DNA of 64,000 bases. It comes from Spirochaetia bacterium. Its GTDB lineage: Bacteria > Spirochaetota > Spirochaetia > G963692905. Below, in pieces: positions 692 through 47,967 of the stretch (position 1 is its first letter; the number at the start of each line of letters is the position of its first letter). The stretch spans positions 6,622 through 70,621 of the forward strand of contig CBDCPJ010000050.1 in NCBI GenBank assembly GCA_965220165.1, written 5' to 3'. The notes under the pieces were generated by a model, which was given only the letters and a program-made list of their open reading frames with translations, searched no databases and was not told where the DNA came from. A program made the translations under genes and the position numbers.

Positions 692-2992
692 CTACAATAA
701 TATCTCGCGAGACTTGCTCCCATTCGGGGGCCCTACTATGCCTTGCTGTTCCATAATATCGATGATCCGCGCCGCTCGATTATAGCCAATTTTAAGTCGT
801 CGTTGTAAATAGGAGGCCGAAGCCTTTCGAGTCTGCTCCACAATAGCCCGCGCTTCGGAAAACAGCGCGTCGCTATCGGAACTATCAGCCTCTTTCGTTT
901 CCGACTCTTCATCGTCGAATATCGCCTCGTCGATATAGTCGGGAAGACCATATTCGCGCGTCGCGCCGGCAATATTCTCGACCTCCTCCTCGGTCAATAA
1001 CGCTCCCTGAATACGTTCGGGATTGGGCGCCAGCGACGATACAAAAAGCATATCGCCTTGCCCCAAAAGGCTCTCCGCGCCGCCGGTATCGATAATAATA
1101 CGCGAGTCTATTTTGCTAGAAACCATAAATGATATACGAGATGGAATGTTTGCTTTAATAAGCCCCGTAATAACTTCGGTCGACGGGCGTTGCGTCGCTA
1201 ACACAAGATGCATCCCTACCGCGCGCGCCATTGCGGCCAATCGCGCTATCAGGGACTCGATCTCTTTGCCTCCAGTAATCATAAGGTCGGCAAATTCATC
1301 GATGACAATAACCCAGTAGGGAAGATGCTCGGCAGTAACTCCACGTTCTTTAATACGGCGATTATAGGTTGTAATATCTCGCGCGCCAAGCGCGTCTAAA
1401 AGATTATAGCGACGTTCCATCTCAAAAATACAGTATTTCAGCGCGGCAATAGCGCGTTTTGGCGATGTAACCACCGGAGTAAGGAGATGCGGTATTCGAT
1501 CATAGAGTTTTAATTCAACTATTTTGGGATCAATGAGCAACAATCGAATATCTCGCGGGGATCTGCTAAATAATAGCGAGCATATTAAACAATTGATCCC
1601 CACCGATTTACCGGTGCCGGTGGCTCCCGCGATTAAAAGATGCGGGGTGCGAGTCAAATCGATAATTTTAGCCGTTCCCTGCACATCCCTGCCTAAAGCA
1701 ATAGGCAACCGAAAGGTGTCGTTGCTGAATTGAGCGTCGCGAATGAGATCGCCAAATCCGACTGTTTGTCGCTTCGCATTCGGAATCTCAATCCCTATGG
1801 CCTCTTTACCGGGTATCGGCGCGACAATTCGAACGCTCGCGGCCGCCAATCGAAGCGCGATATTATCAGCCAATCCGGTGATTTTAGTCAATTTTACTCC
1901 CGGCGCAGGGAGCAGTTCAAACATTGTGATAACCGGACCGTAGCGAATCGCCGTTACTTCGGCTTTGATATTAAAATCGCTCAATGTCTCAAGCAACAAT
2001 TTCGCAGAGGATTGCACGTGATTATTGGATTGATCAAGTCGCAACGTTTCGTATTCTTTGACTAACCCATCTGGAAAAATGGCGTAGCGATTATCATCTT
2101 TCCTTTTTACATATTCATTTACATCCTCAGATTTATCCCGAAGCTTTTTCGATATTGGATGGAATCCTTCTGAATCGTAATATACTTCGAACGCGCCCCC
2201 GTCATCCTCTTCCTCATAGTCATTGGGCATACCTTCAGAGACCTGTCCTCCATTATCGTATTGCCCTTCCGCCAATGGAACATTAAGCGCCGAACGAAGC
2301 GATTCGTCAACAAAATTATCGTCATCGAGCGCTGCGCCCACGCGATCATCCGCATTCCCCGCGGTTACTCGAGCCGCGATCGAGTCTGCCGTCGAATCAA
2401 CCGCTACCCGTCCCATTTCCAAGCCTGCTATTTCATTCTCTGCTGGCAAATCGGCCGCTAATTGCCCTATAGATACATTCTCTCTCATAGCGGCCTTCTC
2501 ATTGGCATTTTCCCGGACAATACTATCATCACTATTATTCGAAGAAAAACCGTCAAACTGCTCGGGCGACGATATGTCTCTTCCTCCATTGGGCGACAAA
2601 AGACGTCCGCTCTGCGCCTGCTCTGCCGCGGAATAGCCGCCTGCTCTGCCGCGGAATGATCGCTTGCCGCCTGCGCCATCGCGGAACGATCGCCTACCGC
2701 CTGCTCTGCCGCGGAATAGCCGCCTACGGCTTGCTCTGTCGCAGAATGGCCGCTTGCCGCCTGCGCCATCGCGGAACGATCGCCTACCGCCTGCTCTGCC
2801 GCGGAATAGCCGTCTACGGCTTGCTCTGCGGAACCTTGCCGCCTGCGCCATCGCGGAAGGATCGCCTACCGCTTGCCGCTCTGCGCCATCGAATAGCCGA
2901 ACGATTGCTCTGCCGCCTACCGCTTGCTCTGCCGCGGAATAGCCGCCTACCGCTTGCTCTGCCGCGGAATGACCGCCCGCAGTCTGCGCCAT
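692..2992 (-). CDS. ftsK: DNA translocase FtsK, C-terminal motor and gamma domains (3' part of a frame-broken gene)
   Basis: Walker A GATGTGKS, Walker B VIVIDEFAD, LATQRPS and gamma domain SASYLQRRLKIGYNRAARIID. The ORF start lies inside the repeat array, so it is probably not the true start. Confidence 0.95.
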   Translation of the reverse strand: MAQTAGGHSAAEQAVGGYSAAEQAVGGRAIVRLFDGAERQAVGDPSAMAQAARFRRASRRRLFRGRAGGRRSFRDGAGGKRPFCDRASRRRLFRGRAGGRRSFRDGAGGKRSFRGRAGGYSAAEQAQSGRLLSPNGGRDISSPEQFDGFSSNNSDDSIVRENANEKAAMRENVSIGQLAADLPAENEIAGLEMGRVAVDSTADSIAARVTAGNADDRVGAALDDDNFVDESLRSALNVPLAEGQYDNGGQVSEGMPNDYEEEDDGGAFEVYYDSEGFHPISKKLRDKSEDVNEYVKRKDDNRYAIFPDGLVKEYETLRLDQSNNHVQSSAKLLLETLSDFNIKAEVTAIRYGPVITMFELLPAPGVKLTKITGLADNIALRLAAASVRIVAPIPGKEAIGIEIPNAKRQTVGFGDLIRDAQFSNDTFRLPIALGRDVQGTAKIIDLTRTPHLLIAGATGTGKSVGINCLICSLLFSRSPRDIRLLLIDPKIVELKLYDRIPHLLTPVVTSPKRAIAALKYCIFEMERRYNLLDALGARDITTYNRRIKERGVTAEHLPYWVIVIDEFADLMITGGKEIESLIARLAAMARAVGMHLVLATQRPSTEVITGLIKANIPSRISFMVSSKIDSRIIIDTGGAESLLGQGDMLFVSSLAPNPERIQGALLTEEEVENIAGATREYGLPDYIDEAIFDDEESETKEADSSDSDALFSEARAIVEQTRKASASYLQRRLKIGYNRAARIIDIMEQQGIVGPPNGSKSREILL

Positions 2993-3490
2993 CGCAAAAT
3001 GGCCGCCTACCGCCTGCTCTGCCGCGGAATGACCTACCGCCTGCTCTGAAACCTTGCCCCATCGCAGGATGGCCGCTTGCCGCCTGCGCCATCGCAGAAC
3101 GATCGCCTACCGCTTGCTCTGCCGCGGAATAGCCGCCTACGGCTTGCTCTGCCGCGGAATGACCGCTTGGCCGCCTACGGCTTGCTCTGTCGCAGAATGA
3201 CCTACCGCCTGCTCTGCCGCGAGATGACCGCCTGCAACTTGCCCCATCGCAGGATGGCCGCTTGCCGCCTGCGCCATCGCAGAATGACCGCCTACCGCCT
3301 GCTCTGCCGCGGAATAGCCGCCTACGGCTTGCTCTGCCGCGGGATGACCGCCTGCAACTCTGCGCCATCGCAAAATGGCCGCCTACGGCTTGCTCTGTCG
3401 CAGAATGACCTACCGCCGCGGGATGACCGCCCGCAACTTGCCCCATCGCAGGGTGGCCGCTTGCCGCTTGCTCTGTCGCGGAGTGATTGC
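2615..3490 (-). repeat. Mosaic ~30-bp GC-rich tandem array in the FtsK linker (GGYSAAEQAV / GDRSAMAQAAS / GHSATEQAV units)
   Basis: Recurring + strand blocks taccgcctgctctgccgcggaatagccgcc and cgcttgccgcctgcgccatcgc over about 875 bp, with small indels. Confidence 0.95.
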
Positions 3491-4028
3491 CTACAAACTG
3501 CTCCACTTCGGGAATTGATTGATCTTGTGGAATAGCGCGATCATATTTCCGCTTGCGCGGAGAATAGGATGTGGACCATTTGAGCGCATAGGAGCATCCT
3601 ATAATGAGTCCCGCTGTCAGTAGTAGGCTGGCAACAATGCCTCCGCGAAGAGTGAACGCGGAAATAACACCTTGAATAAATGGCGTATGCTCGATTGCTG
3701 AACCAAAAATAAGCCTGAGAGATAGGCTAAAGGTAACAAATGGAAATATTAGCAATAACAACGTAAATAGAGCGATCGGTTGATGCGGATAACGCATCAT
3801 ACGGTAAATCGCAAAAGCAAAGAAGAATGGAACAAAGAACGCGGCTATATGAAAACTTTCCAATAAAAAATTACCCGAAAGACGCATCGAAATGGTATAT
3901 AGGCTTTCTCCAGGTACATTAAAAAGATAGGCTAAGCAGGCTATCAGCAATACTATTCCAATAATTCCAAATAATATCGATAAGATATAAATATCTATGC
4001 GATCAGCATGTTTTGTTGTAGACGCCAT
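2814..4028 (-). CDS. ftsK: FtsK N-terminal membrane domain (5' part of the frame-broken gene)
   Basis: ATG at 4028 preceded by GAGGG. Several TM helices directly upstream of the motor domain, then entry into the repeat array. Confidence 0.8.
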   Translation of the reverse strand: MASTTKHADRIDIYILSILFGIIGIVLLIACLAYLFNVPGESLYTISMRLSGNFLLESFHIAAFFVPFFFAFAIYRMMRYPHQPIALFTLLLLIFPFVTFSLSLRLIFGSAIEHTPFIQGVISAFTLRGGIVASLLLTAGLIIGCSYALKWSTSYSPRKRKYDRAIPQDQSIPEVEQFVGNHSATEQAASGHPAMGQVAGGHPAAVGHSATEQAVGGHFAMAQSCRRSSRGRASRRRLFRGRAGGRRSFCDGAGGKRPSCDGASCRRSSRGRAGGRSFCDRASRRRPSGHSAAEQAVGGYSAAEQAVGDRSAMAQAASGHPAMGQGFRAGGRSFRGRAGGRRPFCDGADCGRSFRGRASGRRLFRGRASGRRQSNRSAIRWRRAASGRRSFRDGAGGKVPQSKP

Positions 4029-4103
4029 GCCCTCTATTTCGACAGATAAAGAAGGTGAGTATAACAAAATCGATGCCGGCGTCTTGCTGTCGACGCAGAA
4101 ATA

Positions 4104-15353: not shown

Positions 15354-16127
15354 ATGTTTTTTCATCAACTGCGTCGCTATGTGGGTAGCGTGTTGGCCGT
15401 TATCGCATCGGTCGCGGCGACTGTCGCTGTTATCTTTATCAATTGGAGCATTCCAAATTTGCATAGGGTGGCCGACAATGCGCGCGCTATAATTAATTCC
15501 ACAGACGCGTTGCCCGATTTAGACGATATGACCAGCGCCCTATTATCTCCGATAAGCGTGTTATTATCCGTACTCATTTTTGTGGCGATCATCTCGCTCG
15601 CGGTTATCGCTATGCGCGGCGACGCCTCAAAACGCCTCTGGATAGGGGGGCTAGTCGGGGCGCTCGCTGTTTGCGGAGGGATATCGGGATGGCCGATCGC
15701 CACTCCATTTATGATTGTGGCATTGCTGGGCATTTCAATGGCAATGCGCGGGTGCGACGCGATACGGTTTCGCATTCAATCTGGACGGAGCGCGCCGGCG
15801 ACGCAACCCGTTCAGCCGATGGCGCAACCCGTTCAGCCGATGGCGCAACCCGCTCAGCCGATGGCGCAACCCGCTCAGCCGATGGCGCAACCCGCTCAGC
15901 CGATGGCGCAACCCGCTCAGCCGATGGCGCAACCCGCTCAGCCGGCGACGCAACCCGCTCAGCCGATGGCGCAACCCGCTCAGCCGATGGCGCAGGCGGC
16001 CGAGCAACCCGCCGAGCAAGCGGCGCCGACAGGCAGCCCGGAAGAGCGCCCAATAGATGCGGCTTCTTCCCGTAAAGTCGGGGTTGCGACATGGTTTAAA
16101 AACGCATGGAAAAAATTTTTTGGATAA
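15354..16127 (+). CDS. Hypothetical membrane protein with Pro/Gln/Ala heptad repeat tail
   Basis: About four TM segments, then (PMAQPAQ)n and a basic C-terminal end. Start position uncertain. Confidence 0.75.
   Translation: MFFHQLRRYVGSVLAVIASVAATVAVIFINWSIPNLHRVADNARAIINSTDALPDLDDMTSALLSPISVLLSVLIFVAIISLAVIAMRGDASKRLWIGGLVGALAVCGGISGWPIATPFMIVALLGISMAMRGCDAIRFRIQSGRSAPATQPVQPMAQPVQPMAQPAQPMAQPAQPMAQPAQPMAQPAQPMAQPAQPATQPAQPMAQPAQPMAQAAEQPAEQAAPTGSPEERPIDAASSRKVGVATWFKNAWKKFFG
15794..15994 (+). repeat. 21-bp in-frame tandem repeat, about 9.6 copies
   Basis: Unit gccgatggcgcaacccgctca. Units start at 15794+21k, with PAT variants at copies 1 and 8. Confidence 0.97.
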
Positions 16128-40726: not shown

Positions 40727-40760
40727 AGGGCGTTCAACGGACGCCCTCCCGGTTTTTTTC
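40727..40760 (+). terminator. Putative intrinsic terminator between convergent pntB and carD
   Basis: AGGGCGT...ACGCCCT stem, followed after a few nt by a T-run. Confidence 0.5.
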
Positions 40761-40771
40761 TATTTTTTTAC

Positions 40772-43700
40772 CTACTCGTCGTTATCCCAATTGCTAAGGT
40801 CTTCGCCAGAATCGTTTATGTCTTCGAATGCTTCGCCGATCTTTGATTTTTTATTCTTCTTGGGTTCTATATTATCATTATCTTTGTGCTCGTTTTCGGC
40901 TAAAAGAGCTATCGACTGTTGGAGAATCTTATAGATTTTTTCACTTGCAATTTCTCTATCTATCTTTAATGCAATGGAAATCTCATCAGCTAGTGTGCCC
41001 AATGTACTGTCCAACATCTTACGTTCCATTATAGGCAGATCTTTCATTAGTTTTCTCTGATAAAGAGAACGTACCACTTTCGCGATTTCAAAAAGAGTCC
41101 CTTTTTTGATACTGTCAAGATAGTATTGATATCGCATCTTCCAATCAGCCGGTACTGCTTCTCCCTCCTCCGCAAGAATATCCAGCGCTTTATTTGCTTT
41201 TCGACTTGATACTATTGACCGTATCTTTTGTTTGGTTATTTGTGTTGTTGGAACCATTACCGTCATCTCAGTGCTAGCAATATATATTACGTAGTAGAGT
41301 ATCATTTCGCCATCAAATTCACGCTCTTCGATTGCAACTATCTCGCCAACTCCTTGCACTGGATAGACTACTTTTTGATACAATTTAAACCGCAATTCAG
41401 ACGATTTCTTCCCTTTTTTATCTATACCTTTTTCAATTTGCCCAGCCTCTCGCTCGACCTGATTGGGCGACGATTCATCAACGGCGTCTTGGTCGGATAT
41501 CCGCTCATCGGCCGCGGCGGATGAGTCGCTTTGCGGCGGGCGTTCTTGCTCGCTCTTTGGCTTGCGGCCGCGGCGCTTCTTTGCTGCCGGTCGATCGGAA
41601 ACAGAAACGGGGCGCTCCCCGCTCTGACTGGACGCCGATCCATTAGCGGCGCCTTGGGTCGATGTATCAGCGCTGTCGCGGCCCTGCTCAGCGCTCTCCT
41701 GTCCGGGTATCCGCGCGGTGGTTGCGGCGGGCGGGTCGCCAGCGCTGTCATGTTCGGGAAGCCGCTCATCGGCCGCGGCGGGCGAGTCGCTTTGCGGCGG
41801 GCGTTCTTGCTCGCTCTTTGGCTTGCGGCCGCGGCGCTTCTTTGCTGCCGGTCGATCGGAAACAGAAACGGGGCGCTCCCCGCTCTGACTGGACGCCGAT
41901 CCATTAGCGGCGCCTTGGGTCGATGTATCAGCGCTGTCGCGGCCCTGCTCAGCGCTCTCCTGTCCGGGTATCCGCGCGGTGGTTGCGGCGGGCGGGTCGC
42001 CAGCGCTGTCATGTTCGGAAAGCCGCTCATCGGCCGCGGCGGGCGAGTCGCTTTGCGGCGGGCGTTCTTGCTCGCTCTTTGGCTTGCGGCCGCGGCGCTT
42101 CTTTGCTGCCGGTCGATCGGAAACAGAAACGGGGCGCTCCCCGCTCTGACTGGACGCCGATCCATTAGCGGCGCCTTGGGTCGATGTATCAGCGCTGTCG
42201 CGGCCCTGCTCAGCGCTCTCCTGTCCGGGTATCCGCGCGGTGGTTGCGGCGGGCGGGTCGCCAGCGCTGTCATGTTCGGAAAGCCGCTCATCGGCCGCGG
42301 CGGATGAGTCGCTTTGCGGCGGGCGTTCTTGCTCGCTCTTTGGCTTGCGGCCGCGGCGCTTCTTTGCTGCCGGTCGATCGGAAACAGAAACGGGGCGCTC
42401 CCCGCTCTGACTGGACGCCGATCCATTAGCGGCGCCTTGGGTCGATGTATCAGCGCTGTCGCGGCCCTGCTCAGCGCTCTCCTGTCCGGGTATCCGCGCG
42501 GTGGTTGCGGCGGGCGGGTCGCCAGCGCTGTCATGTTCGGAAAGCCGCTCATCGGCCGCGGCGGGATGAGTCGCTTTGCGGCGGGCGTTCTTGCTCGCTC
42601 TTTGGCTTGCGGCCGCGGCGCTTCTTTGCTGCCGGTCGATCGGAAACAGAAACGGGGCGCTCCCCGCTCTGACTGGACGCCGATCCATTAGCGGCGCCTT
42701 GGGTCGATGTATCAGCGCTGTCGCGGCCCTGCTCAGCGCTCTCCTGTCCGGGTATCCGCGCGGTGGTTGCGGCGGGCGGGTCGCCAGCGCTGTCATGTTC
42801 GGAAAGCCGCTCATCGGCCGCGGCGGATGAGTCGCTTTGCGGCGGGCGTTCTTGCTCGCTCTTTGGCTTGCGGCCGCGGCGCTTCTTTGCTGCCGGTCGA
42901 TCGGAAACAGAAACGGGGCGCTCCCCGCTCTGACTGGACGCCGATCCATTAGCGGCGCCTTGGGTCGATGTATCAGCGCTGTCGCGGCCCTGCTCAGCGC
43001 TCTCCTGTCCGGGTATCCGCGCGGTGGTTGCGGCGGGCGGGTCGCCAGCGCTGTCATGTTCGGAAAGCCGCTCATCGGCCGCGGCGGATGAGTCGCTTTG
43101 CGGCGGGCGTTCTTGCTCGCTCTTTGGCTTGCGGCCGCGGCGCTTCTTTGCTGCCGGTCGATCGGAAACAGAAACGGGGCGCTCCCCGCTCTGACTGGAC
43201 GCCGATCCATTAGCGGCGCCTTGGGTCGATGTATCAGCGCTGTCGCGGCCCTGCTCAGCGCTCTCCTGTCCGGGTATCCGCGCGGTGGTTGCGGCGGGCG
43301 GGTCGCCAGCGCTGTCATGTTCGGAAAGCCGCTCATCGGCCGCGGCGGATGAGTCGCTTTGCGGCGGGCGTTCTTGCTCGCTCTTTGGCTTGCGGCCGCG
43401 GCGCTTCTTTGCTGCCGGTCGATCGGAAACAGAAACGGGGCGCTCCCCGCTCTGACTGGACGCCGATCCATTAGCGGCGCCTTGGGTCGATGTATCAGCG
43501 CTGTCGCGGCCCTGCTCAGCGCTCTCCTGTCCGGGTATCCGCGCGGTGGTTGCGGCGGGCGGGTCGCCAGCGCTGTCATGTTCGGAAAGCCGCTCATCGG
43601 CCGCGGCGGATGAGTCGCTTTGCGGCGGGCGTTCTTGCTCGCTCTTTGGCTTGCGGCCGCGGCGCTTCTTTGCTGCCGGTCGATCGGAAACAGAAACGGG

Positions 43701-45359
43701 GCGCTCCCCGCTCTGACTGGACGCCGATTCATTAGCGGCGCCTTGGGTCGATGTATCAGCGCTGTCGCGGCCCTGCTCAGCGCTCTCCTGTCCGGGTATC
43801 CGCGCGGTGGTTGCGGCGGGCGGGTCGCCAGCGCTGTCATGTTCGGAAAGCCGCTCATCGGCCGCGGCGGATGAGTCGCTTTGCGGCGGGCGTTCTTGCT
43901 CGCTCTTTGGCTTGCGGCCGCGGCGCTTCTTTGCTGCCGGTCGATCGGAAACAGAAACGGGGCGCTCCCCGCTCTGACTGGACGCCGATCCATTAGCGGC
44001 GCCTTGGGTCGATGTATCAGCGCTGTCGCGGCCCTGCTCAGCGCTCTCCTGTCCGGGTATCCGCGCGGTGGTTGCGGCGGGCGGGTCGCCAGCGCTGTCA
44101 TGTTCGGAAAGCCGCTCATCGGCCGCGGCGGATGAGTCGCTTTGCGGCGGGCGTTCTTGCTCGCTCTTTGGCTTGCGGCCGCGGCGCTTCTTTGCTGCCG
44201 GTCGATCGGAAACAGAAACGGGGCGATCCCCGCTCTGACTGGACGCCGATCCATTAGCGGCGCCTTGGGTCGATGTATCAGCGCTGTCGCGGCCCTGCTT
44301 AGCGCTCTCGCTGTCCGGGTATCCGCGCGGTGGTTGCGGCGGGTATCAGCGCTGTCGCGGCCCTGCTCAGCGGGTCGGGTCGCCAGCGCTGTCATGTTCG
44401 GAAAGCCGCTCGAAAACAGAAACGGGGCGATCGGCCGCGGCGGATGAGTCGCTTTGCGGCGGGCGCTCTTGCTCGCTCTTTGGCTTGCTCGGCGCTGCTA
44501 CCGGTCGATCGGAAACAGAAACGGGGGCTCCCCTCTGACTGGACGCCGATTCATTAGCGGCGCCTTGGGTCGATGTATCAGCGCTGTCGCGGCCCTGTAG
44601 CGCTCTCATGTCCGGTATCCGCGCGGTGGTTGCGGCGGGCGGGTCGCCAGCGCTGTCATGTTCGGAAAGTCGCTCATCGGCCGCGGCGGATGAGTCGCTT
44701 TGCGGCGGGGGCGCTCTTTGGCTCATGAACTCGGCGTTGTTCTGCTACCGGTCGCTCGAAAACAGAAACGGGGCGATCCCCATCTGACTGGACGCCGATT
44801 CATTAGTGGCGCCTTGGGTCGATGTATCAGCGCTGTCGCGGCCCTGCTCAGCGCTCTCATGTCCGGGTATCCGCGCGGTGGTTGCGGCGGGCGGGTCGCC
44901 AGCGCTGTCATGTTCGGAAAGCCGCTCATCGGCCGCGGCGGATGAGTCGCTTTGCGGCGGGCGTTCTTGCTCGCTCTTTGGCTCATGAACTCGGCGTTGT
45001 TCTGCTACCGGTCGCTCGAAAACAGAAACGGGGCGCTCCCCGCTCTGACTGGACGCCGATTCATTAGCATTGTCATGGGCAGATTTATTAGCTGTGTCGT
45101 GGTCTTGATCAACAGCATCATGGTCAGATGCACGCTCGTCAGTCACTGCGGGCAGTTCGCTTTGCAGCATTTTTTCTGGATAAGATGCCCCATCAGCACT
45201 ATCAGACGCCTGTGTAATTATCTCGGATTGACTTTGTGGAGGCGTTACTACGTCCTGTTCTGATCGCCCGTCGTTTTTATCATATTTACTAGCTTGCGTT
45301 CTATCAATATCATCGTGGATAGATTGCGACGTATTTTCTTTATTCTTATCTGACGACAC
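40772..45359 (-). CDS. carD: CarD/CdnL-family transcription factor with very long N-terminal repeat region (frame broken in this sequence)
   Basis: GGAGGT RBS + GTG at 45359. C-terminal ~210 aa: FKLYQKVVYPVQGVG.I, MTVMVP, DWKMRY, LPIMERKM. The unique N-terminus (ORF 44745-45359) and the CarD ORF are joined by the array. Confidence 0.85.
41501..45068 (-). repeat. 261-bp (87-aa) tandem repeat, about 13.7 copies
   Basis: Unit marker ccgctcatcgg at 41501, 41762, 42023, 42284, 42545, 42807, 43068, 43329, 43590, 43851, 44112, then a garbled unit near 44400 and variant units near 44671 and 44932. Confidence 0.97.
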
Positions 45360-45417
45360 TACTGGAACCTCCGTTTATATTAGTTTGTATTTTGTCTATT
45401 TCCAATGTTCTTCCGTA

Positions 45418-47967
45418 CTATTTTTTACTTGCCTTTCTTGAGCTCTTTCGCTTAGAAACTGTTCCCGCTTTTTTTGTATCGGCAATAATAGCAAGCGCTT
45501 GCTCAGTAGTCATAGATTGTATACTTTCGTCCGATTTCATATCCTTTGGCAAACCTATATTTCGAGTACCATATTTTATGTGCGGGCCATAACGTCCTCT
45601 CACTATCTTTATTGAAATCTTATTCTCTTTATCGAAGCCTAAATCCCTTATCTCGCGAGATGAGGAACTTCTTGGAATCGCCAATAGTTGTAATGCCCTC
45701 TCTAAGCCAATGGTGTAGACATCCTCATCTTTAGGCACCGAACGATAACTGCCAGCATATCCCACATAGGGTCCAAAACGACCTATATTAGCAATAATCA
45801 TTTCACCATTGCTAGGATCTTTACCCAATTCTCGCGGCAAACTTAGCCATTTCAATGCCAAATCAATGGTAACATCTCGTATTTGCACCCCTGTAGGGAT
45901 TGCAGCTCTTCGTGGTTTATTTTCTTGCGATTTTTCGCCTAATTGAACATATGGACCATATCGCCCGATAAGACAGTAGATATTGCTACCTGTGGCTGGA
46001 TCAATACCAAGCGACTCATTAGATTTTATCTGTTGTTTAGTAATCTCCTCAAAATCGGCGACAGTAATATCGGCGGGAGGCTTTGTTTCTGGTATCGAAG
46101 CATGTGAACTCTCTCCATTTTCATCTTTCCAGACAAGATATGGGCCATACCGCCCAATTCTAATGTCGGGAGTTATTTCTGTGTATGGCATCGAAATAGA
46201 ACGAGAATGTTCTATAGCAATAGTACCGTACCTTTCGTTCACTTGTTGCTCCAGGCCTTCGGGACCTTGCCAAAACTTGCGAAGATAGTCTAAAGAATTA
46301 AGCTCTCCGTATGCAATTTTATCTAACGCATCTTCCATCTCAGAGGTGAATGTATAGTCGACAAGATTAGGAAAGTGTTTTTCTAAAAGTTGCGCGACCG
46401 CGATACCGGTAAAAGTTGGAGCGATAGAGCCTTTGTTATTAGAAGCATATTTACGGTCGAATAACGTTGAGATCGTCGTTGCATATGTCGACGGGCGTCC
46501 AATTCCTAATTTCTCTAATTGTTGTACTATTGTGGACTCGGTATAACGAGGCGGGGGTTGCGTGAAATGTTCTTCCGGCTCAATGCTACCTAATTGTAAT
46601 ATAGTCCCTATGTCTACATTAGGAATGGAGCGCTCTCTACTTGCATCTTGGTAGAGCGCAAGAAAACCGGGAAATACGATACGACTCCCTCCGGCTCGAA
46701 ATAGACAATCTTCAACTGCTACATCTATTGTAACGGTTTCCCTTTGAGCCGATTTCATTTGCGTTCCCAACGTTCTCTTCCAGATCAATCGATATAGCTT
46801 AGCATCTATAGCTCCAAGAGAAAGTGTGTCGGGATGACGAAACACCTCTCCAGAAGGTCTAATTGCTTCATGAGCCTCTTGCGCCTGTTTTGATTTAGCA
46901 GTATATTGACGCGGTTTTTCTGAAAGGTAGTCGTCTCCAAAACATTCTTTTACTGCAGAGCGAGCGGCTCGGATTGCCTGTGAAGAAAGATGTGGAGAAT
47001 CGGTTCGCATATATGTAATATATCCGCCTTCATAGAGACGTTGCGCGCTCCTCATAACCTCCTTTGCCGATATTTTTAGAGCATTCACGCCTTGTTGTTC
47101 AAGCGTCGAGGTAATAAAGGGAATTGGCGGGTGTTGAGAACTCTTTCTTTTTTTTACATCAGAGACTCTCCATTCTCTCTTTGGAAGAACCTCCACCAGT
47201 TCGTCAGCCTTTTCTTTATTCAATAATATACGATTTTTCTTTGCTAAAAATTTTCCGGTAATCGAGTCGAAATCGCTACCATCGACAATTCGTTTGCCGC
47301 CTATCGTATGGAGACGCACTTCAAATGAGTTGACTAAAGCGGTTATTCCCCAATAGTTATGACGCGCAAAAACAATGCGTTCTTTCTCGCGCTCTACAAT
47401 CAGCCGTAAACAAGGAGACTGCACTCGTCCGGCTGAAAGTCCAAATGCGATTTTTTTCCAAATAAGTTCAGAAAGAGTGTATCCATATAACCGATCGAGA
47501 ATTCGCCGTGTTTCTTGAGCGGTTACCATATCCATATTGATACTACGAAAATTATTCATTGCCTCCACAATCGCACTTTTAGTAATTTCATGGAAAACCA
47601 TACGAACTATTTTTGCTTTTGTTTTCAATACTTCGCAGAGATGCCATGAAATACTCTCGCCTTCTCGATCTTCGTCTGTGGCAAGCACTACCACATCCGC
47701 AGATGCCGTTGCTTTACGCATATTTTGAATAATTTTATTTTTCCCTTTTATCGTTACATAAATAGGAGAAAAATCATTCTCTAAATCTACCCCAAACTTT
47801 GTCCATGGTTTCCCTTGATAACGTTTTGGAATATCGCCTGTAGATTTTGGCAAATCCCGAACATGTCCGACACTAGCAAGAACTGTCCAACCTTCTGGAA
47901 GAAAGGGAGCTATAGTTTTTGCTTTGGTCGGCGACTCTACTATTACAACTGTTTTTTCACCGGCCAT
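45418..47967 (-). CDS. topA: DNA topoisomerase I (type IA) with C-terminal GRYGPY repeats
   Basis: IVESPTKAKTI, LATDEDREGE, SAGRVQS, GYITYMRTDS, GRYGPY repeats. Confidence 0.97.
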   Translation of the reverse strand: MAGEKTVVIVESPTKAKTIAPFLPEGWTVLASVGHVRDLPKSTGDIPKRYQGKPWTKFGVDLENDFSPIYVTIKGKNKIIQNMRKATASADVVVLATDEDREGESISWHLCEVLKTKAKIVRMVFHEITKSAIVEAMNNFRSINMDMVTAQETRRILDRLYGYTLSELIWKKIAFGLSAGRVQSPCLRLIVEREKERIVFARHNYWGITALVNSFEVRLHTIGGKRIVDGSDFDSITGKFLAKKNRILLNKEKADELVEVLPKREWRVSDVKKRKSSQHPPIPFITSTLEQQGVNALKISAKEVMRSAQRLYEGGYITYMRTDSPHLSSQAIRAARSAVKECFGDDYLSEKPRQYTAKSKQAQEAHEAIRPSGEVFRHPDTLSLGAIDAKLYRLIWKRTLGTQMKSAQRETVTIDVAVEDCLFRAGGSRIVFPGFLALYQDASRERSIPNVDIGTILQLGSIEPEEHFTQPPPRYTESTIVQQLEKLGIGRPSTYATTISTLFDRKYASNNKGSIAPTFTGIAVAQLLEKHFPNLVDYTFTSEMEDALDKIAYGELNSLDYLRKFWQGPEGLEQQVNERYGTIAIEHSRSISMPYTEITPDIRIGRYGPYLVWKDENGESSHASIPETKPPADITVADFEEITKQQIKSNESLGIDPATGSNIYCLIGRYGPYVQLGEKSQENKPRRAAIPTGVQIRDVTIDLALKWLSLPRELGKDPSNGEMIIANIGRFGPYVGYAGSYRSVPKDEDVYTIGLERALQLLAIPRSSSSREIRDLGFDKENKISIKIVRGRYGPHIKYGTRNIGLPKDMKSDESIQSMTTEQALAIIADTKKAGTVSKRKSSRKASKK

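What the first reader, a model, noticed from the sequence alone, without database searches (positions are those of the whole stretch)
40772..45359. CarD/CdnL with about 14 tandem 87-aa repeats carrying AT-hook-like KKRRGRKPK patches
Seen: a normal CarD domain (with the conserved Trp in DWKMRY) and an acidic tail, preceded by ~13.7 near-identical 87-aa low-complexity units. Eleven units contain AKKRRGRKPK, holding 7 of the 13 basic residues in an otherwise acidic, Ser/Ala-rich unit. The most N-terminal units carry EQRRVHEPK instead. A restored gene would be about 1500 aa, versus about 160-200 aa for typical CdnL. Known: Myxococcus CarD joins this domain to an HMGA-like region with RGRP AT-hooks and an acidic tract, and RGR minor-groove motifs also occur in Lsr2/H-NS. 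Inference: an independently evolved, N-terminal, multivalent DNA-binding or condensate-forming extension that links an RNAP-binding factor to nucleoid organisation, tunable by copy number.
Basis: partly seen in the sequence, partly recalled or inferred. Interest (0 to 1): 0.78.

Follow-up and report, generated by a model that had tools for sequence, protein, structure and literature searches.

The report
Spirochaete CarD with giant repeat tail
An uncultured spirochaete's RNA-polymerase helper protein CarD/CdnL is preceded, in the same reading frame, by about 14 near-identical 87-residue disordered repeats, each with a small basic DNA-hook-like patch. This is an extreme form of the DNA-tethering front tails that many CarD relatives carry, but in this assembly the tail is broken by frameshifts.

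Summary
A 261-bp tandem array (13.6 copies, 67% GC in a ~40% GC neighbourhood) lies directly 5' of a genuine CdnL-type CarD module (Pfam, PDB sequence and fold matches). The array is real: a second assembly holds at least 9.7 copies, and repeat k-mers are 4-10x the flank depth in five runs.

The frame that encodes KKRRGRKPK is the coding frame. It runs on from a GTG with a strong Shine-Dalgarno site next to topA, and it joins the CarD domain. Relic half-units on both flanks differ mainly at synonymous sites.

As assembled, the gene is not one ORF. One extra C separates the start frame from the CarD frame, and two 5' units carry stop-bearing excursions. Four other runs show no sign of these lesions, and ftsK in the same window is also split inside a GC-rich repeat. 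Assembly error or strain-private damage is therefore likely but unproven.

N-terminal basic tails on CarD homologues are common, including in Treponema, so this is an extreme variant and not a new invention. The patch is not a canonical AT-hook: its RGRKP core matches MeCP2 AT-hook 2, a weak binder with little AT preference. DNA binding and condensation remain inference.

The parts
40772..41386 (-). Canonical CdnL-type CarD module with a C-terminal acidic tail and the stop codon (40772-40774). The RID/Tudor domain is at 41213-41386, CarD_C at 40934-41191, and the 45-aa acidic tail at 40775-40909.
   Evidence: Pfam PF02559 and PF21095 score above their cut-offs. phmmer hits M. xanthus CdnL 2LWJ at E=1.2e-27 and Mtb CarD 4KBM at 5e-17. 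In the AlphaFold model residues 104-270 have pLDDT >90. Foldseek gives TM 0.88 and rmsd 2.0 A to Mtb CarD in the open promoter complex 6EDT_M. The Trp wedge residue is invariant.
41387..41485 (-). Non-repeat, lower-GC junction (..DERISDQDAVDESSPNQVEREAGQIEKGIDKKGKKSSE..) that links the array to the CarD fold. It contains no ATG.
   Evidence: Read from the sequence. It carries a relic half-unit, DERISDQDAVD, that matches the N-flank relic mainly through synonymous changes.
41393..41395 (-). TTG codon at the canonical CdnL N-terminus (would give MRFKLYQKVVYP...). It is a candidate internal start for a tail-less 207-aa form.
   Evidence: Alignment to CdnL 2LWJ and Mtb CarD starts here. It is the first start-type codon in the CarD frame downstream of 42600. 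The SD duplex is weak, -5.2 kcal/mol 12 nt upstream, similar to pntB's -5.8.
41486..42563 (-). About 4.1 repeat units (4 KKRRGRKPK patches) that are contiguous and in frame with the CarD domain.
   Evidence: Translation in frame 1. In a second assembly (L001) 3.8 units are in frame with CarD.
42563..42564 (-). One extra C (CATCCGCC becomes CATCCCGCC) in unit 10. It is the only net frameshift between the start-codon frame and the CarD frame.
   Evidence: Unit alignment and frame map. Contigs of runs X1, X2, X5 and X6 across this site all lack the extra base, and none carries it.
42564..44316 (-). About 6.7 near-identical units (7 KKRRGRKPK patches) whose hook frame is the frame of the GTG start at 45359. 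The first of them (unit 4) has one extra C near 44310.
   Evidence: No indel variants of the unit appear in contigs of X1, X2, X4 or X6.
44317..45068 (-). Three degenerate outer units (W1-W3). They carry EQRRVHEPK in place of the basic patch, plus mosaic indels (-1/-8, -1/-2, -3, -9, +18, +32). The indels are net in-frame but create three stops in the start-codon frame, the first at 44745-44747.
   Evidence: Alignment of units and translation. The stop-bearing stretches (about 44338-44424 and 44599-44743) are not covered by any contig of four other runs.
45069..45359 (-). Non-repeat acidic N-terminal head (97 aa, net charge -13), starting at GTG 45357-45359.
   Evidence: GC by codon position is 0.60/0.39/0.34, like topA, pntB and the CarD domain. 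It carries the relic DERASDHDAVD.
45368..45372 (-). Shine-Dalgarno GGAGG, 8 nt upstream of the GTG start and 58 nt downstream of the topA stop.
   Evidence: Read from the sequence. The duplex with the anti-SD is -10.7 kcal/mol, the strongest of all candidate starts tested. Run X2 reads GGATG here (45369).
45485..45513 (-). Sigma-70-like promoter match (ATGACT-17-TATTAT with TG) inside the 3' end of topA, upstream of the GTG start.
   Evidence: Consensus scan only. It is not evidence of function.
40727..40747 (.). GC-rich hairpin between the convergent genes pntB (+) and carD (-). It is a probable shared terminator.

Best explanation
This is the carD/cdnL gene of an uncultured spirochaete. Its product is, or very recently was, a long protein with four parts. 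The first is an acidic 97-aa head that starts at GTG 45359. The second is a recently amplified array of 87-aa disordered units. The third is a short linker. The fourth is a canonical CdnL module (RNAP beta-lobe-binding Tudor domain plus a helical domain with the Trp wedge) followed by an acidic tail.

Shown: the array is real, it is multi-copy in several samples, and it lies in a region that was coding in the hook frame.

Inferred: the array grew by unequal crossing-over or gene conversion from one segment of an older coding tail. The amplified variant is the one in which EQRRVHEPK had become KKRRGRKPK.

Inferred mechanism: each unit pairs an acidic Ser/Ala-rich spacer with one weak RGRKP-type minor-groove or backbone hook. 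Many weak hooks in series would give avidity for DNA and keep CdnL concentrated on the chromosome near promoters. This is the role proposed for the Lys-rich N-terminal tails of many CdnL homologues and shown for the HMGA-like or H1-like C-terminal domains of myxobacterial CarD. The acidic spacers keep net charge near zero and may temper non-specific sticking.

The frameshifts in this assembly are most likely assembly errors in GC-rich repeats or strain-private lesions. A tail-less form started at TTG 41395 may coexist with the long form.
For: The CarD module is intact. The array is real and multi-copy: 13.6 copies here, at least 9.7 in an independent ENA contig at 98.9% identity that ends inside the array, and repeat contigs at roughly 4-10x flank depth in X1, X2, X4, X5 and X6.

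The hook frame is the coding frame. GGAGG-8 nt-GTG opens it. The head shows the GC1>GC2>GC3 coding pattern. The hook frame stays in register with that start through all compensated indels as far as 42564, and it is the CarD frame from there on. The relic motif DERxSDxDAVD on both flanks differs at 7 of 11 core codons, 5 of them synonymous (from the codons printed). The outer and inner unit variants differ at 14 sites, 10 of them within 24 nt of the patch (Poisson P about 1e-5). All five amino-acid changes inside the nine-residue patch raise its positive charge or leave it unchanged. There is no ATG, GTG or TTG in the hook frame between 42600 and TTG 41395.

The lesions are not shared. The extra C is absent from X1, X2, X5 and X6. 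There are no unit indel variants in four runs, and the stop-bearing segments are not recovered there. The same assembly also splits ftsK inside a GC-rich repeat.

N-terminal basic tails are common in CarD homologues, including spirochaetes. The unit is predicted disordered (pLDDT 46-56). RGRKP equals MeCP2 AT-hook 2, which binds DNA weakly.
Against: No assembly or database protein shows an intact long ORF. Searches for proteins of 664-2112 aa with the CarD part or with the repeat part found none. Both available assemblies are frameshifted, at different places, and Logan contigs cannot prove that a variant is absent. The large indels in units 2-3 are not typical sequencing errors.

Substitutions among units show no clear purifying selection in the hook frame: 16 synonymous to 32 non-synonymous, against 14:34 and 11:37 in the other two frames. 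The patch fails the Pfam AT_hook model, and its best-characterised match is a poor AT-hook. The unit is net -1, unlike the basic tails of relatives. A start codon at the canonical CdnL position exists, with an SD as good as pntB's. Run X2 has GGATG in place of GGAGG. Other GC-rich coding repeats in this genome (ftsK linker, a 21-bp array) suggest a general mutational tendency and not selection on CarD. No RNA or protein data could be found.
Confidence: 0.5

Rival explanations
1. Only a short protein is made. The functional product is an ordinary ~207-aa CdnL started at TTG 41395. The repeat array and head are a decaying former N-terminal tail, now a pseudogenised 5' region or long leader that is free to expand, shrink and frameshift.
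For: TTG 41395 lies exactly where CdnL and Mtb CarD begin, and its SD-like duplex of -5.2 kcal/mol is similar to pntB's. Both assemblies are frameshifted at different sites. There are three stops in the start-codon frame within units 2-3. There is no excess of synonymous change among units. No intact long ORF is in any database. The gene caller on the second assembly called only a 195-aa CarD.
Against: TTG is a weak start, and the SD sits 12 nt away. The strongest initiation signal, by a factor of two in duplex energy, is at 45359. No promoter-like site lies between the array and the CarD domain. All indels but one are net frame-preserving, which is unexpected for free decay. The frameshifting lesions are not seen in four other runs. 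Relatives do translate long N-terminal tails.
Confidence: 0.22
2. The tail is translated but functionally neutral. The tail is part of the protein, but the array is a runaway minisatellite expansion tolerated in a disordered region. It is driven by this genome's tendency to amplify GC-rich repeats, and it has no DNA-binding or condensate role.
For: Other GC-rich tandem arrays sit inside coding disordered regions of the same window: the ftsK linker at 2637-3486 and a 21-bp PMAQPAQ array at 15802-16019. Earlier notes report the same for PBP1A. The units are nearly identical, so the expansion is recent. There is no codon-level selection among units. Unit net charge is about zero. RGRKP is a poor AT-hook in MeCP2.
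Against: Differences between the non-amplified and amplified unit variants are concentrated in the patch, and within the patch all raise positive charge or leave it unchanged. Three of these are GC-to-AT first-position changes, which GC-biased conversion does not explain. A DNA-tethering tail at this position is a recurrent feature of the family.
Confidence: 0.22
3. The literal 1207-aa ORF is real. Translation would start at ATG 44395, read seven units in the Arg/Ala/Pro-rich frame (net charge about +105), then shift through the genomic extra C into four hook units and CarD. The result would be a protamine-like basic tail.
For: The ORF is open over 3.6 kb. The composition of the alternative frame (18 basic and 3 acidic residues per unit; Ala- and Pro-rich sequence) resembles the basic tails of relatives. 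The second assembly also has its distal units in that frame relative to CarD.
Against: ATG 44395 has no SD (-2.6 kcal/mol). Arg/Ala/Pro-rich open alternative frames are the expected by-product of 67% GC DNA. That frame has no continuity with either flank. The extra C is absent from four other runs. The two assemblies shift at different sites by different lesions (+1 versus -5).
Confidence: 0.04
4. Assembly artefact. The array is an over-expanded or chimeric product of repeat misassembly, and the true locus has one or two units.
For: Short-read contigs collapse the array and cannot give its length. The window's genome is a MAG with other frameshifted genes.
Against: An independent assembly from another sample has at least 9.7 units with its own unit variants. 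Repeat k-mer depth is 4-10x the flanks in five runs.
Confidence: 0.02

Closest known systems
CdnL/CarD homologues with N-terminal Lys/Ala/Pro/Ser/Thr-rich basic tails (e.g. Treponema socranskii WP_431726533.1, 336 aa; Spirochaetia MAG MBR4684772.1, 345 aa; many unnamed metagenomic proteins)
   Same: They share the CdnL module (41-50% identity), with a long disordered extension fused to its N-terminus. Some of these tails are visibly built by tandem duplication, and several have an acidic C-terminal tail.
   Different: Their tails are 60-290 aa, strongly basic (K+R 17-40%, D+E mostly 0-10%) and lack the 87-aa unit. Here the tail is up to about 1300 aa, is built from 87-aa polyampholyte units with net charge -1, and has its basic residues focused in one 9-aa patch. 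No homologue of the unit exists among 1.84 billion representative proteins. I found no paper on such N-terminal tails.
Myxococcus xanthus CarD (CarDNt + acidic region + four RGRP AT-hooks, HMGA-like) and Anaeromyxobacter CarD (H1-like C-terminal domain)
   Same: A CarD_TRCF RNAP-binding module is fused to an acidic stretch and to repeated basic DNA-binding motifs (PMC2919716).
   Different: In the myxobacterial proteins the DNA-binding part is C-terminal, short (four hooks), canonical RGRP, and works with CarG. Here it is N-terminal, has 11 or more RGRKP patches that each alternate with acidic spacers, and the core is CdnL-like (best PDB match CdnL 2LWJ). CarG dependence was not tested.
MeCP2 AT-hook 2 (PKKRGRKP; core RGRKP)
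   Same: The local sequence is almost identical to KKRRGRKPK, with the Pro displaced one residue from RGR (PMC5028900).
   Different: It is a single motif in a eukaryotic chromatin protein. It was shown to bind DNA weakly with barely detectable AT preference, so any strong binding here would have to come from multivalency.
P0211, an unnamed 391-aa metagenomic CdnL homologue with N-terminal RGRP hooks
   Same: AT-hook-type motifs are placed N-terminal to a CdnL module (KRGRPPK, KRGRPRK, KKRGRKSK; Pfam AT_hook 16.8 bits, just under the 17.4 cut-off).
   Different: It has three or four hooks in non-repetitive sequence and no 87-aa unit. Identity in the CarD part is only 36%, so it is a separate origin.

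Membership tests
CarD_CdnL_TRCF family (CdnL-type RNAP-binding factor) | N-terminal Tudor-like RID domain (PF02559) followed by the helical CarD C-terminal domain (PF21095) | tested here: met
   43.8 and 72.4 bits, against cut-offs of 23 and 23.1. phmmer hits CdnL 2LWJ at E=1.2e-27.
CarD_CdnL_TRCF family (CdnL-type RNAP-binding factor) | Two-domain fold superposable on solved CarD/CdnL structures | tested here: met
   The AlphaFold core has pLDDT >90. Foldseek gives TM 0.88 and rmsd 2.0 A to Mtb CarD 6EDT_M, and TM 0.76-0.86 to Thermus and Streptomyces CarD.
CarD_CdnL_TRCF family (CdnL-type RNAP-binding factor) | Conserved Trp of the C-terminal domain (the wedge at the upstream edge of the transcription bubble, from established CarD structures) | tested here: met
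   W187 of the construct (DWKMRY) is invariant in 37 homologues and aligns with the W of CdnL TWNRRY.
CarD_CdnL_TRCF family (CdnL-type RNAP-binding factor) | Binding to the RNAP beta lobe and stabilisation of the open complex | not testable with these tools
   This needs biochemistry.
Myxobacterial CarD (HMGA-type global regulator) | C-terminal acidic region followed by canonical RGRP AT-hooks (or an H1-like K/A/P domain), and a CarG partner | tested here: not met
   The C-terminus is a 45-aa acidic tail without hooks. The hook-like patches are N-terminal. The core is closer to CdnL than to CarDNt.
Canonical AT-hook (Pfam PF02178; core R-G-R-P) | RGRP core flanked by basic residues, with a match to the AT_hook profile | tested here: not met
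   Two consensus units gave no Pfam hit even at E<=10, whereas the control P0211 gave 16.8 bits. The core is RGRKP.
Canonical AT-hook (Pfam PF02178; core R-G-R-P) | Preferential minor-groove binding to AT-rich DNA | not testable with these tools
   The nearest characterised motif (MeCP2 AT-hook 2, RGRKP) shows weak binding and little AT preference.
Histone-H1-like / Lys-Ala-Pro basic tail of CdnL homologues | Strongly basic, low-acidic K/A/P(S/T) composition | tested here: not met
   The unit has 13 basic and 14 acidic residues, net -1, and is Ser/Ala-rich. Tails of relatives have K+R 17-40% and D+E mostly 0-10%.
Intact protein-coding gene | One uninterrupted reading frame from start codon to stop | tested here: not met
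   There are three stops in the start frame within units 2-3, and one net +1 shift at about 42563. Other runs do not show these lesions, but no intact copy is on record.

The most novel reading that the evidence does not exclude
In the living population the gene is intact and encodes a CdnL of 700-1500 aa. Its N-terminus would be a copy-number-variable chain of 4-14 'acidic spacer plus RGRKP hook' modules. This blocky polyampholyte would bind DNA multivalently and could drive DNA-dependent clustering or condensation of RNA polymerase-CdnL on the nucleoid. Unequal crossing-over between the near-identical 261-bp units would change the valency between strains and so tune transcription initiation capacity. 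That would make it a bacterial, repeat-length-tunable analogue of HMGA/MeCP2-type chromatin factors fused to a core initiation factor.
Probability: 0.15. Interest if true: 0.72.

Novelty: new variant of a known kind. Interest (0 to 1): 0.45.

Why it matters
CarD/CdnL is a general factor that stabilises open promoter complexes, and it is essential in mycobacteria and myxobacteria. Databases show that many lineages have attached disordered, charged tails to its N-terminus, yet I found no paper on such N-terminal tails in the two literature searches aimed at them. This locus is the most extreme case seen here. Its modular, recently amplified array would allow a clean dose-response test of whether valency of weak DNA hooks controls where and how strongly CdnL acts, using 1, 3, 5 and 10 units.

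The locus also shows how GC-rich coding minisatellites arise inside disordered regions of a lower-GC genome. It is a caution as well: such arrays are exactly where MAG assemblies frameshift, so 'giant' or 'split' genes there need checking against reads.

Tried and rejected
I therefore could not check for a second cdnL paralogue, for carG, or for genome-wide repeat statistics.
- The search for related loci with the CarD domain in genome contigs found nothing. An exact 41-nt repeat pattern in metagenome contigs also found nothing.
- The closest CarD relatives outside this species are only about 52% identical. They are short (178-188 aa) and lie in different gene neighbourhoods, so synteny gives no help.
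- The substitution analysis among 24 unit copies does not discriminate between the frames. GC by codon position within the unit is flat at 0.66-0.71. I rejected both as frame evidence.
- The CarD domains of the two strains differ at only 2 sites, too few for dN/dS.
- No RNA run holds the locus. A 2026 Hi-C run with the same organism label had no reads on it in the 2% sampled.
- Logan contigs collapse the array, so copy numbers from depth ratios are rough (X1 about 10, X2 3.5-10, X4 and X5 about 4, X6 about 6) and may be biased by GC.
- Searches for long proteins (664-2112 aa) with the CarD part or the repeat part found none.
- Pfam and NCBIfam give nothing for the head or the unit. Rfam gives nothing on either strand.
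- The look-up of encoding contigs could not locate the window's own record.
- I rejected programmed frameshifting or phase variation at the C-run. The run is only CC to CCC, the shift is absent from other runs, and the second assembly shifts by a different lesion elsewhere.

Full report
**1. What is in the sequence**

On the minus strand, between topA and the convergent pntB gene, lies a 4.6-kb stretch. TopA is confirmed by TIGR01051 at 695.6 bits against a cut-off of 456.4. The 3' end of the stretch is a textbook CarD/CdnL module.
- Pfam finds CarD_TRCF_RID and CarD_C above their gathering scores.
- phmmer against the PDB gives M. xanthus CdnL 2LWJ at E=1.2e-27 and M. tuberculosis CarD at 5e-17.
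- An AlphaFold model built on 37 homologues has pLDDT >90 over the two domains.
- The model superposes on Mtb CarD in the open promoter complex with TM 0.88 and rmsd 2.0 A.
- The Trp of DWKMRY is invariant.

Immediately upstream, Tandem Repeats Finder reports one array: 41486..45068, period 261 bp, 13.6 copies, score 5825.
- Ten to eleven units are 98.8-100% identical, and the three units furthest from CarD are degenerate.
- The array is 67% GC, while the flanking genes are about 39-45% GC.
- In one frame ('frame A') the unit reads GQESAEQGRDSADTSTQGAANGSASSQSGERPVSVSDRPAAKKRRGRKPKSEQERPPQSDSSAAADERLSEHDSAGDPPAATTARIP.
- The unit has 13 basic and 14 acidic residues. Seven of the basic residues lie in KKRRGRKPK, and only 4.6% of residues are hydrophobic.
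- KKRRGRKPK occurs 11 times. The two outermost units have EQRRVHEPK instead.

**2. The array is real**

An independent ENA metagenome contig (L001) is 98.9% identical in the flanks. It carries the same array with at least 9.7 copies and ends inside it. Its units have their own substitutions.

In Logan contigs of five public runs the array collapses, as expected. The repeat pieces nevertheless have about 4-10 times the k-mer depth of the single-copy flanks:
- X1: 81.8 against 7-10
- X2: 584 against 56-167
- X4: 33.6 against 7-9.5
- X5: 7.9 against 2
- X6: 58.9 against 9.7

. The spread hints at copy-number differences between samples, but depth ratios on GC-rich repeats are crude.

**3. Which frame is coding**

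Frame A is the coding frame. Six observations support this.
- It begins at GTG 45359, which sits 8 nt behind a GGAGG and 58 nt behind the topA stop. The anti-SD duplex is -10.7 kcal/mol, twice as strong as for any other candidate start.
- The 97 non-repeat codons that follow have the genome's coding signature, GC1/2/3 = 0.60/0.39/0.34. TopA has 0.51/0.42/0.33.
- A tblastn frame map shows that frame A stays in register with that start as far as 42564. From there on it is in register with the CarD domain.
- Both non-repeat flanks keep a relic half-unit: DERASDHDAVD upstream and DERISDQDAVD downstream. They differ at 7 of the 11 core codons, 5 of them synonymous, as the codons printed show. The binomial P is about 0.013 at a 25% neutral expectation (my calculation). 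Over the whole 15-codon stretch compared, one search counts 5 synonymous and 6 non-synonymous codon differences.
- The outer unit W1 differs from the amplified consensus at 14 sites. Ten of these fall within 24 nt of the patch (Poisson P about 1e-5). In frame A they change EQRRVHE to KKRRGRK: four of the five replacements add positive charge and one (V to G) is neutral. Three of them are GC-to-AT first-position changes, which GC-biased conversion cannot explain.
- The relatives' start position (MS..K..FK..VVYP) has no ATG here.

Two tests were uninformative. GC by codon position inside the unit is flat, and the synonymous to non-synonymous counts among 24 unit copies do not separate the frames: 16:32, 14:34 and 11:37. 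That fits a very young amplification of disordered sequence.

**4. The gene is broken as assembled**

There is no single ORF. The literal ORFs are:
- 45359..44745, 204 aa
- a 119-aa piece
- 44395..40772, 1207 aa

. The 1207-aa ORF starts at an ATG with no SD (-2.6 kcal/mol). It reads seven units in an Arg/Ala/Pro-rich frame with net charge about +15 per unit. Only then does one extra C (CATCCGCC to CATCCCGCC at about 42563) put it into frame A.

In the frame of the real start, that extra C is the only net shift. Units 2-3 also carry mosaic indels (-1/-8, -1/-2, -3, -9, +18, +32, with a +1 in unit 4). These sum to multiples of three, but the local excursions contain three stops. L001 is shifted too, but elsewhere and differently: a 5-nt loss at the start of its unit 7.

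Three observations argue that at least part of this damage is not a property of the species.
- Every contig of X1, X2, X5 and X6 that crosses 42563 lacks the extra C, and none has it.
- No indel variant of the unit appears in X1, X2, X4 or X6, although single-copy variants would have depths of 7-160.
- The stop-bearing stretches of units 2-3 are not covered by any contig of those runs.

In addition, the essential gene ftsK in the same window is split into two overlapping ORFs in different frames, exactly inside its own GC-rich 30-bp repeat. Other strains differ from the window there by 7- and 9-nt indels. Earlier notes on this genome report frameshifts in PBP1A, a lipoprotein and a cyclase (unverified leads).

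Contigs show presence, not absence. No intact long ORF exists in the protein collection. The question therefore stays open. I put about 55-60% on an intact long gene in the natural population.

**5. A short form is possible**

The first start-type codon in the CarD frame downstream of the array is TTG 41395. It would give MRFKLYQKVVYP..., which is exactly where CdnL and Mtb CarD begin. Its SD-like duplex (-5.2 kcal/mol, 12 nt away) is no worse than pntB's. No promoter-like site lies between the array and this codon. A tail-less isoform, alone or alongside the long one, cannot be excluded.

**6. Comparison with what is known**

A HMMER search of 1.84 billion representatives with four units plus CarD found no other protein containing the unit. 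The only repeat hits were the window's own fragments. The same search did reveal many CarD homologues with N-terminal extensions. Of 223 homologues collected, 65 have at least 30 extra residues and 33 have at least 100.

These tails are Lys/Ala/Pro/Ser/Thr-rich, with K+R 17-40% and few acidic residues. Some are visibly tandem-repeated. Examples include Treponema socranskii WP_431726533.1 (336 aa) and a Spirochaetia MAG protein (345 aa). One unnamed protein (P0211) has RGRP hooks N-terminal to CdnL.

The 2010 survey of the family listed spirochaete members at 161-208 aa and a family maximum of 456 aa (PMC2919716). I found no paper on N-terminal extensions of CdnL. Earlier notes of this scan describe the same kind of tail in several phyla, which agrees with what I found independently.

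The nearest studied analogue is myxobacterial CarD, where an acidic region plus four RGRP hooks, or an H1-like domain, sits C-terminal to the CarD module.

**7. The patch**

KKRRGRKPK is not a canonical AT-hook. The core is RGRKP, and the Pfam AT_hook model gives no hit at E<=10, while the P0211 control scores 16.8 bits. It is almost identical to MeCP2 AT-hook 2 (PKKRGRKP). As a GST-peptide, that motif needed about 25 times more protein than the HMG-I consensus hook to shift DNA, and it showed barely detectable AT preference. The authors attribute this to the displaced proline (PMC5028900). Any substantial DNA affinity here must therefore come from multivalency. AT specificity should not be assumed.

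**8. Most likely mechanism**

Steps marked as inference are not shown by the data.
- Shown: a CdnL module, a real multi-copy array, and an array embedded in a sequence that was coding in frame A, with a strong start at its head.
- Inferred: an ancestral CdnL with a modest acidic/basic disordered N-terminal tail acquired a strongly basic patch in one segment. That segment was then amplified by unequal crossing-over, and homogenisation is still going on. One sign is that the window's last unit has been converted to the consensus, whereas L001, X1, X2 and X4 keep an older junction.
- Inferred: the chain of weak hooks tethers CdnL to DNA by avidity. The acidic spacers and the acidic head and tail temper this, as acidic tails do in HMGA/HMGB-type proteins (established knowledge of those families).

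The neutral-expansion rival is serious, because this genome amplifies GC-rich repeats in other disordered regions too.

**9. Verdict**

This is a striking variant, in length and architecture, of a widespread but unstudied theme: CdnL with an N-terminal DNA-tethering tail. It is not a new category.

Noticed in passing
window 692-4067 (-), repeats 2637-3486: ftsK is split into an N-terminal membrane ORF (2814..4067) and a motor ORF (692..2992). They overlap by 178 nt in different frames, inside a GC-rich 30-bp repeat linker whose translation flips between GGYSAAEQAV-type and RRLFRGRAGG-type frames. Contigs of other runs differ from the window here by 7-nt and 9-nt insertions.
   Followed up: partly
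window 15802-16019 (+), inside ORF 15354..16127: A 21-bp GC-rich tandem array (9.2 copies) encodes (PMAQPAQ)n in frame, in the C-terminal tail of a small membrane protein. It is a third GC-rich coding minisatellite in one 64-kb window of a ~45% GC genome.
   Followed up: no
P0098 / P0099 families: Proteins of 371-641 aa carry two complete CarD/CdnL modules in tandem, joined and preceded by Lys/Ala/Pro-rich stretches. The P0098 cluster has ten near-identical members, seen on contigs up to 2.77 Mb. I did not see a double-CdnL architecture described in the papers I read.
   Followed up: no
P0211, ENA contig of 64 kb: A 391-aa CdnL homologue has three or four RGRP-type AT-hooks (KRGRPPK, KRGRPRK, KKRGRKSK) N-terminal to the CarD module. 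It is effectively a domain-permuted analogue of myxobacterial CarD.
   Followed up: partly
window 41500-41534 vs L001 and runs X1, X2, X4: The last repeat unit next to CarD reads SDSSAAADERISDQ in the window but QNDTTVSTDERISDQ in L001. X1, X2 and X4 share 9-11 substitutions in the same stretch. The window's copy appears to have been converted to the array consensus, a sign of continuing gene conversion at the array edge.
   Followed up: partly
window 45369 (run X2): In run X2 the Shine-Dalgarno GGAGG upstream of GTG 45359 reads GGATG (C>A on the plus strand, 56x depth, near a contig end). The strongest initiation signal is therefore not invariant between strains.
   Followed up: no
L001 3..1541 and 1586..2587: The gene caller used for the ENA contig called the array as two ORFs in the Arg/Ala/Pro-rich frame and CarD as a truncated 195-aa protein starting at an internal GTG (MQGVGEIV). 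This shows how GC3-based gene calling picks the wrong frame in such arrays.
   Followed up: partly
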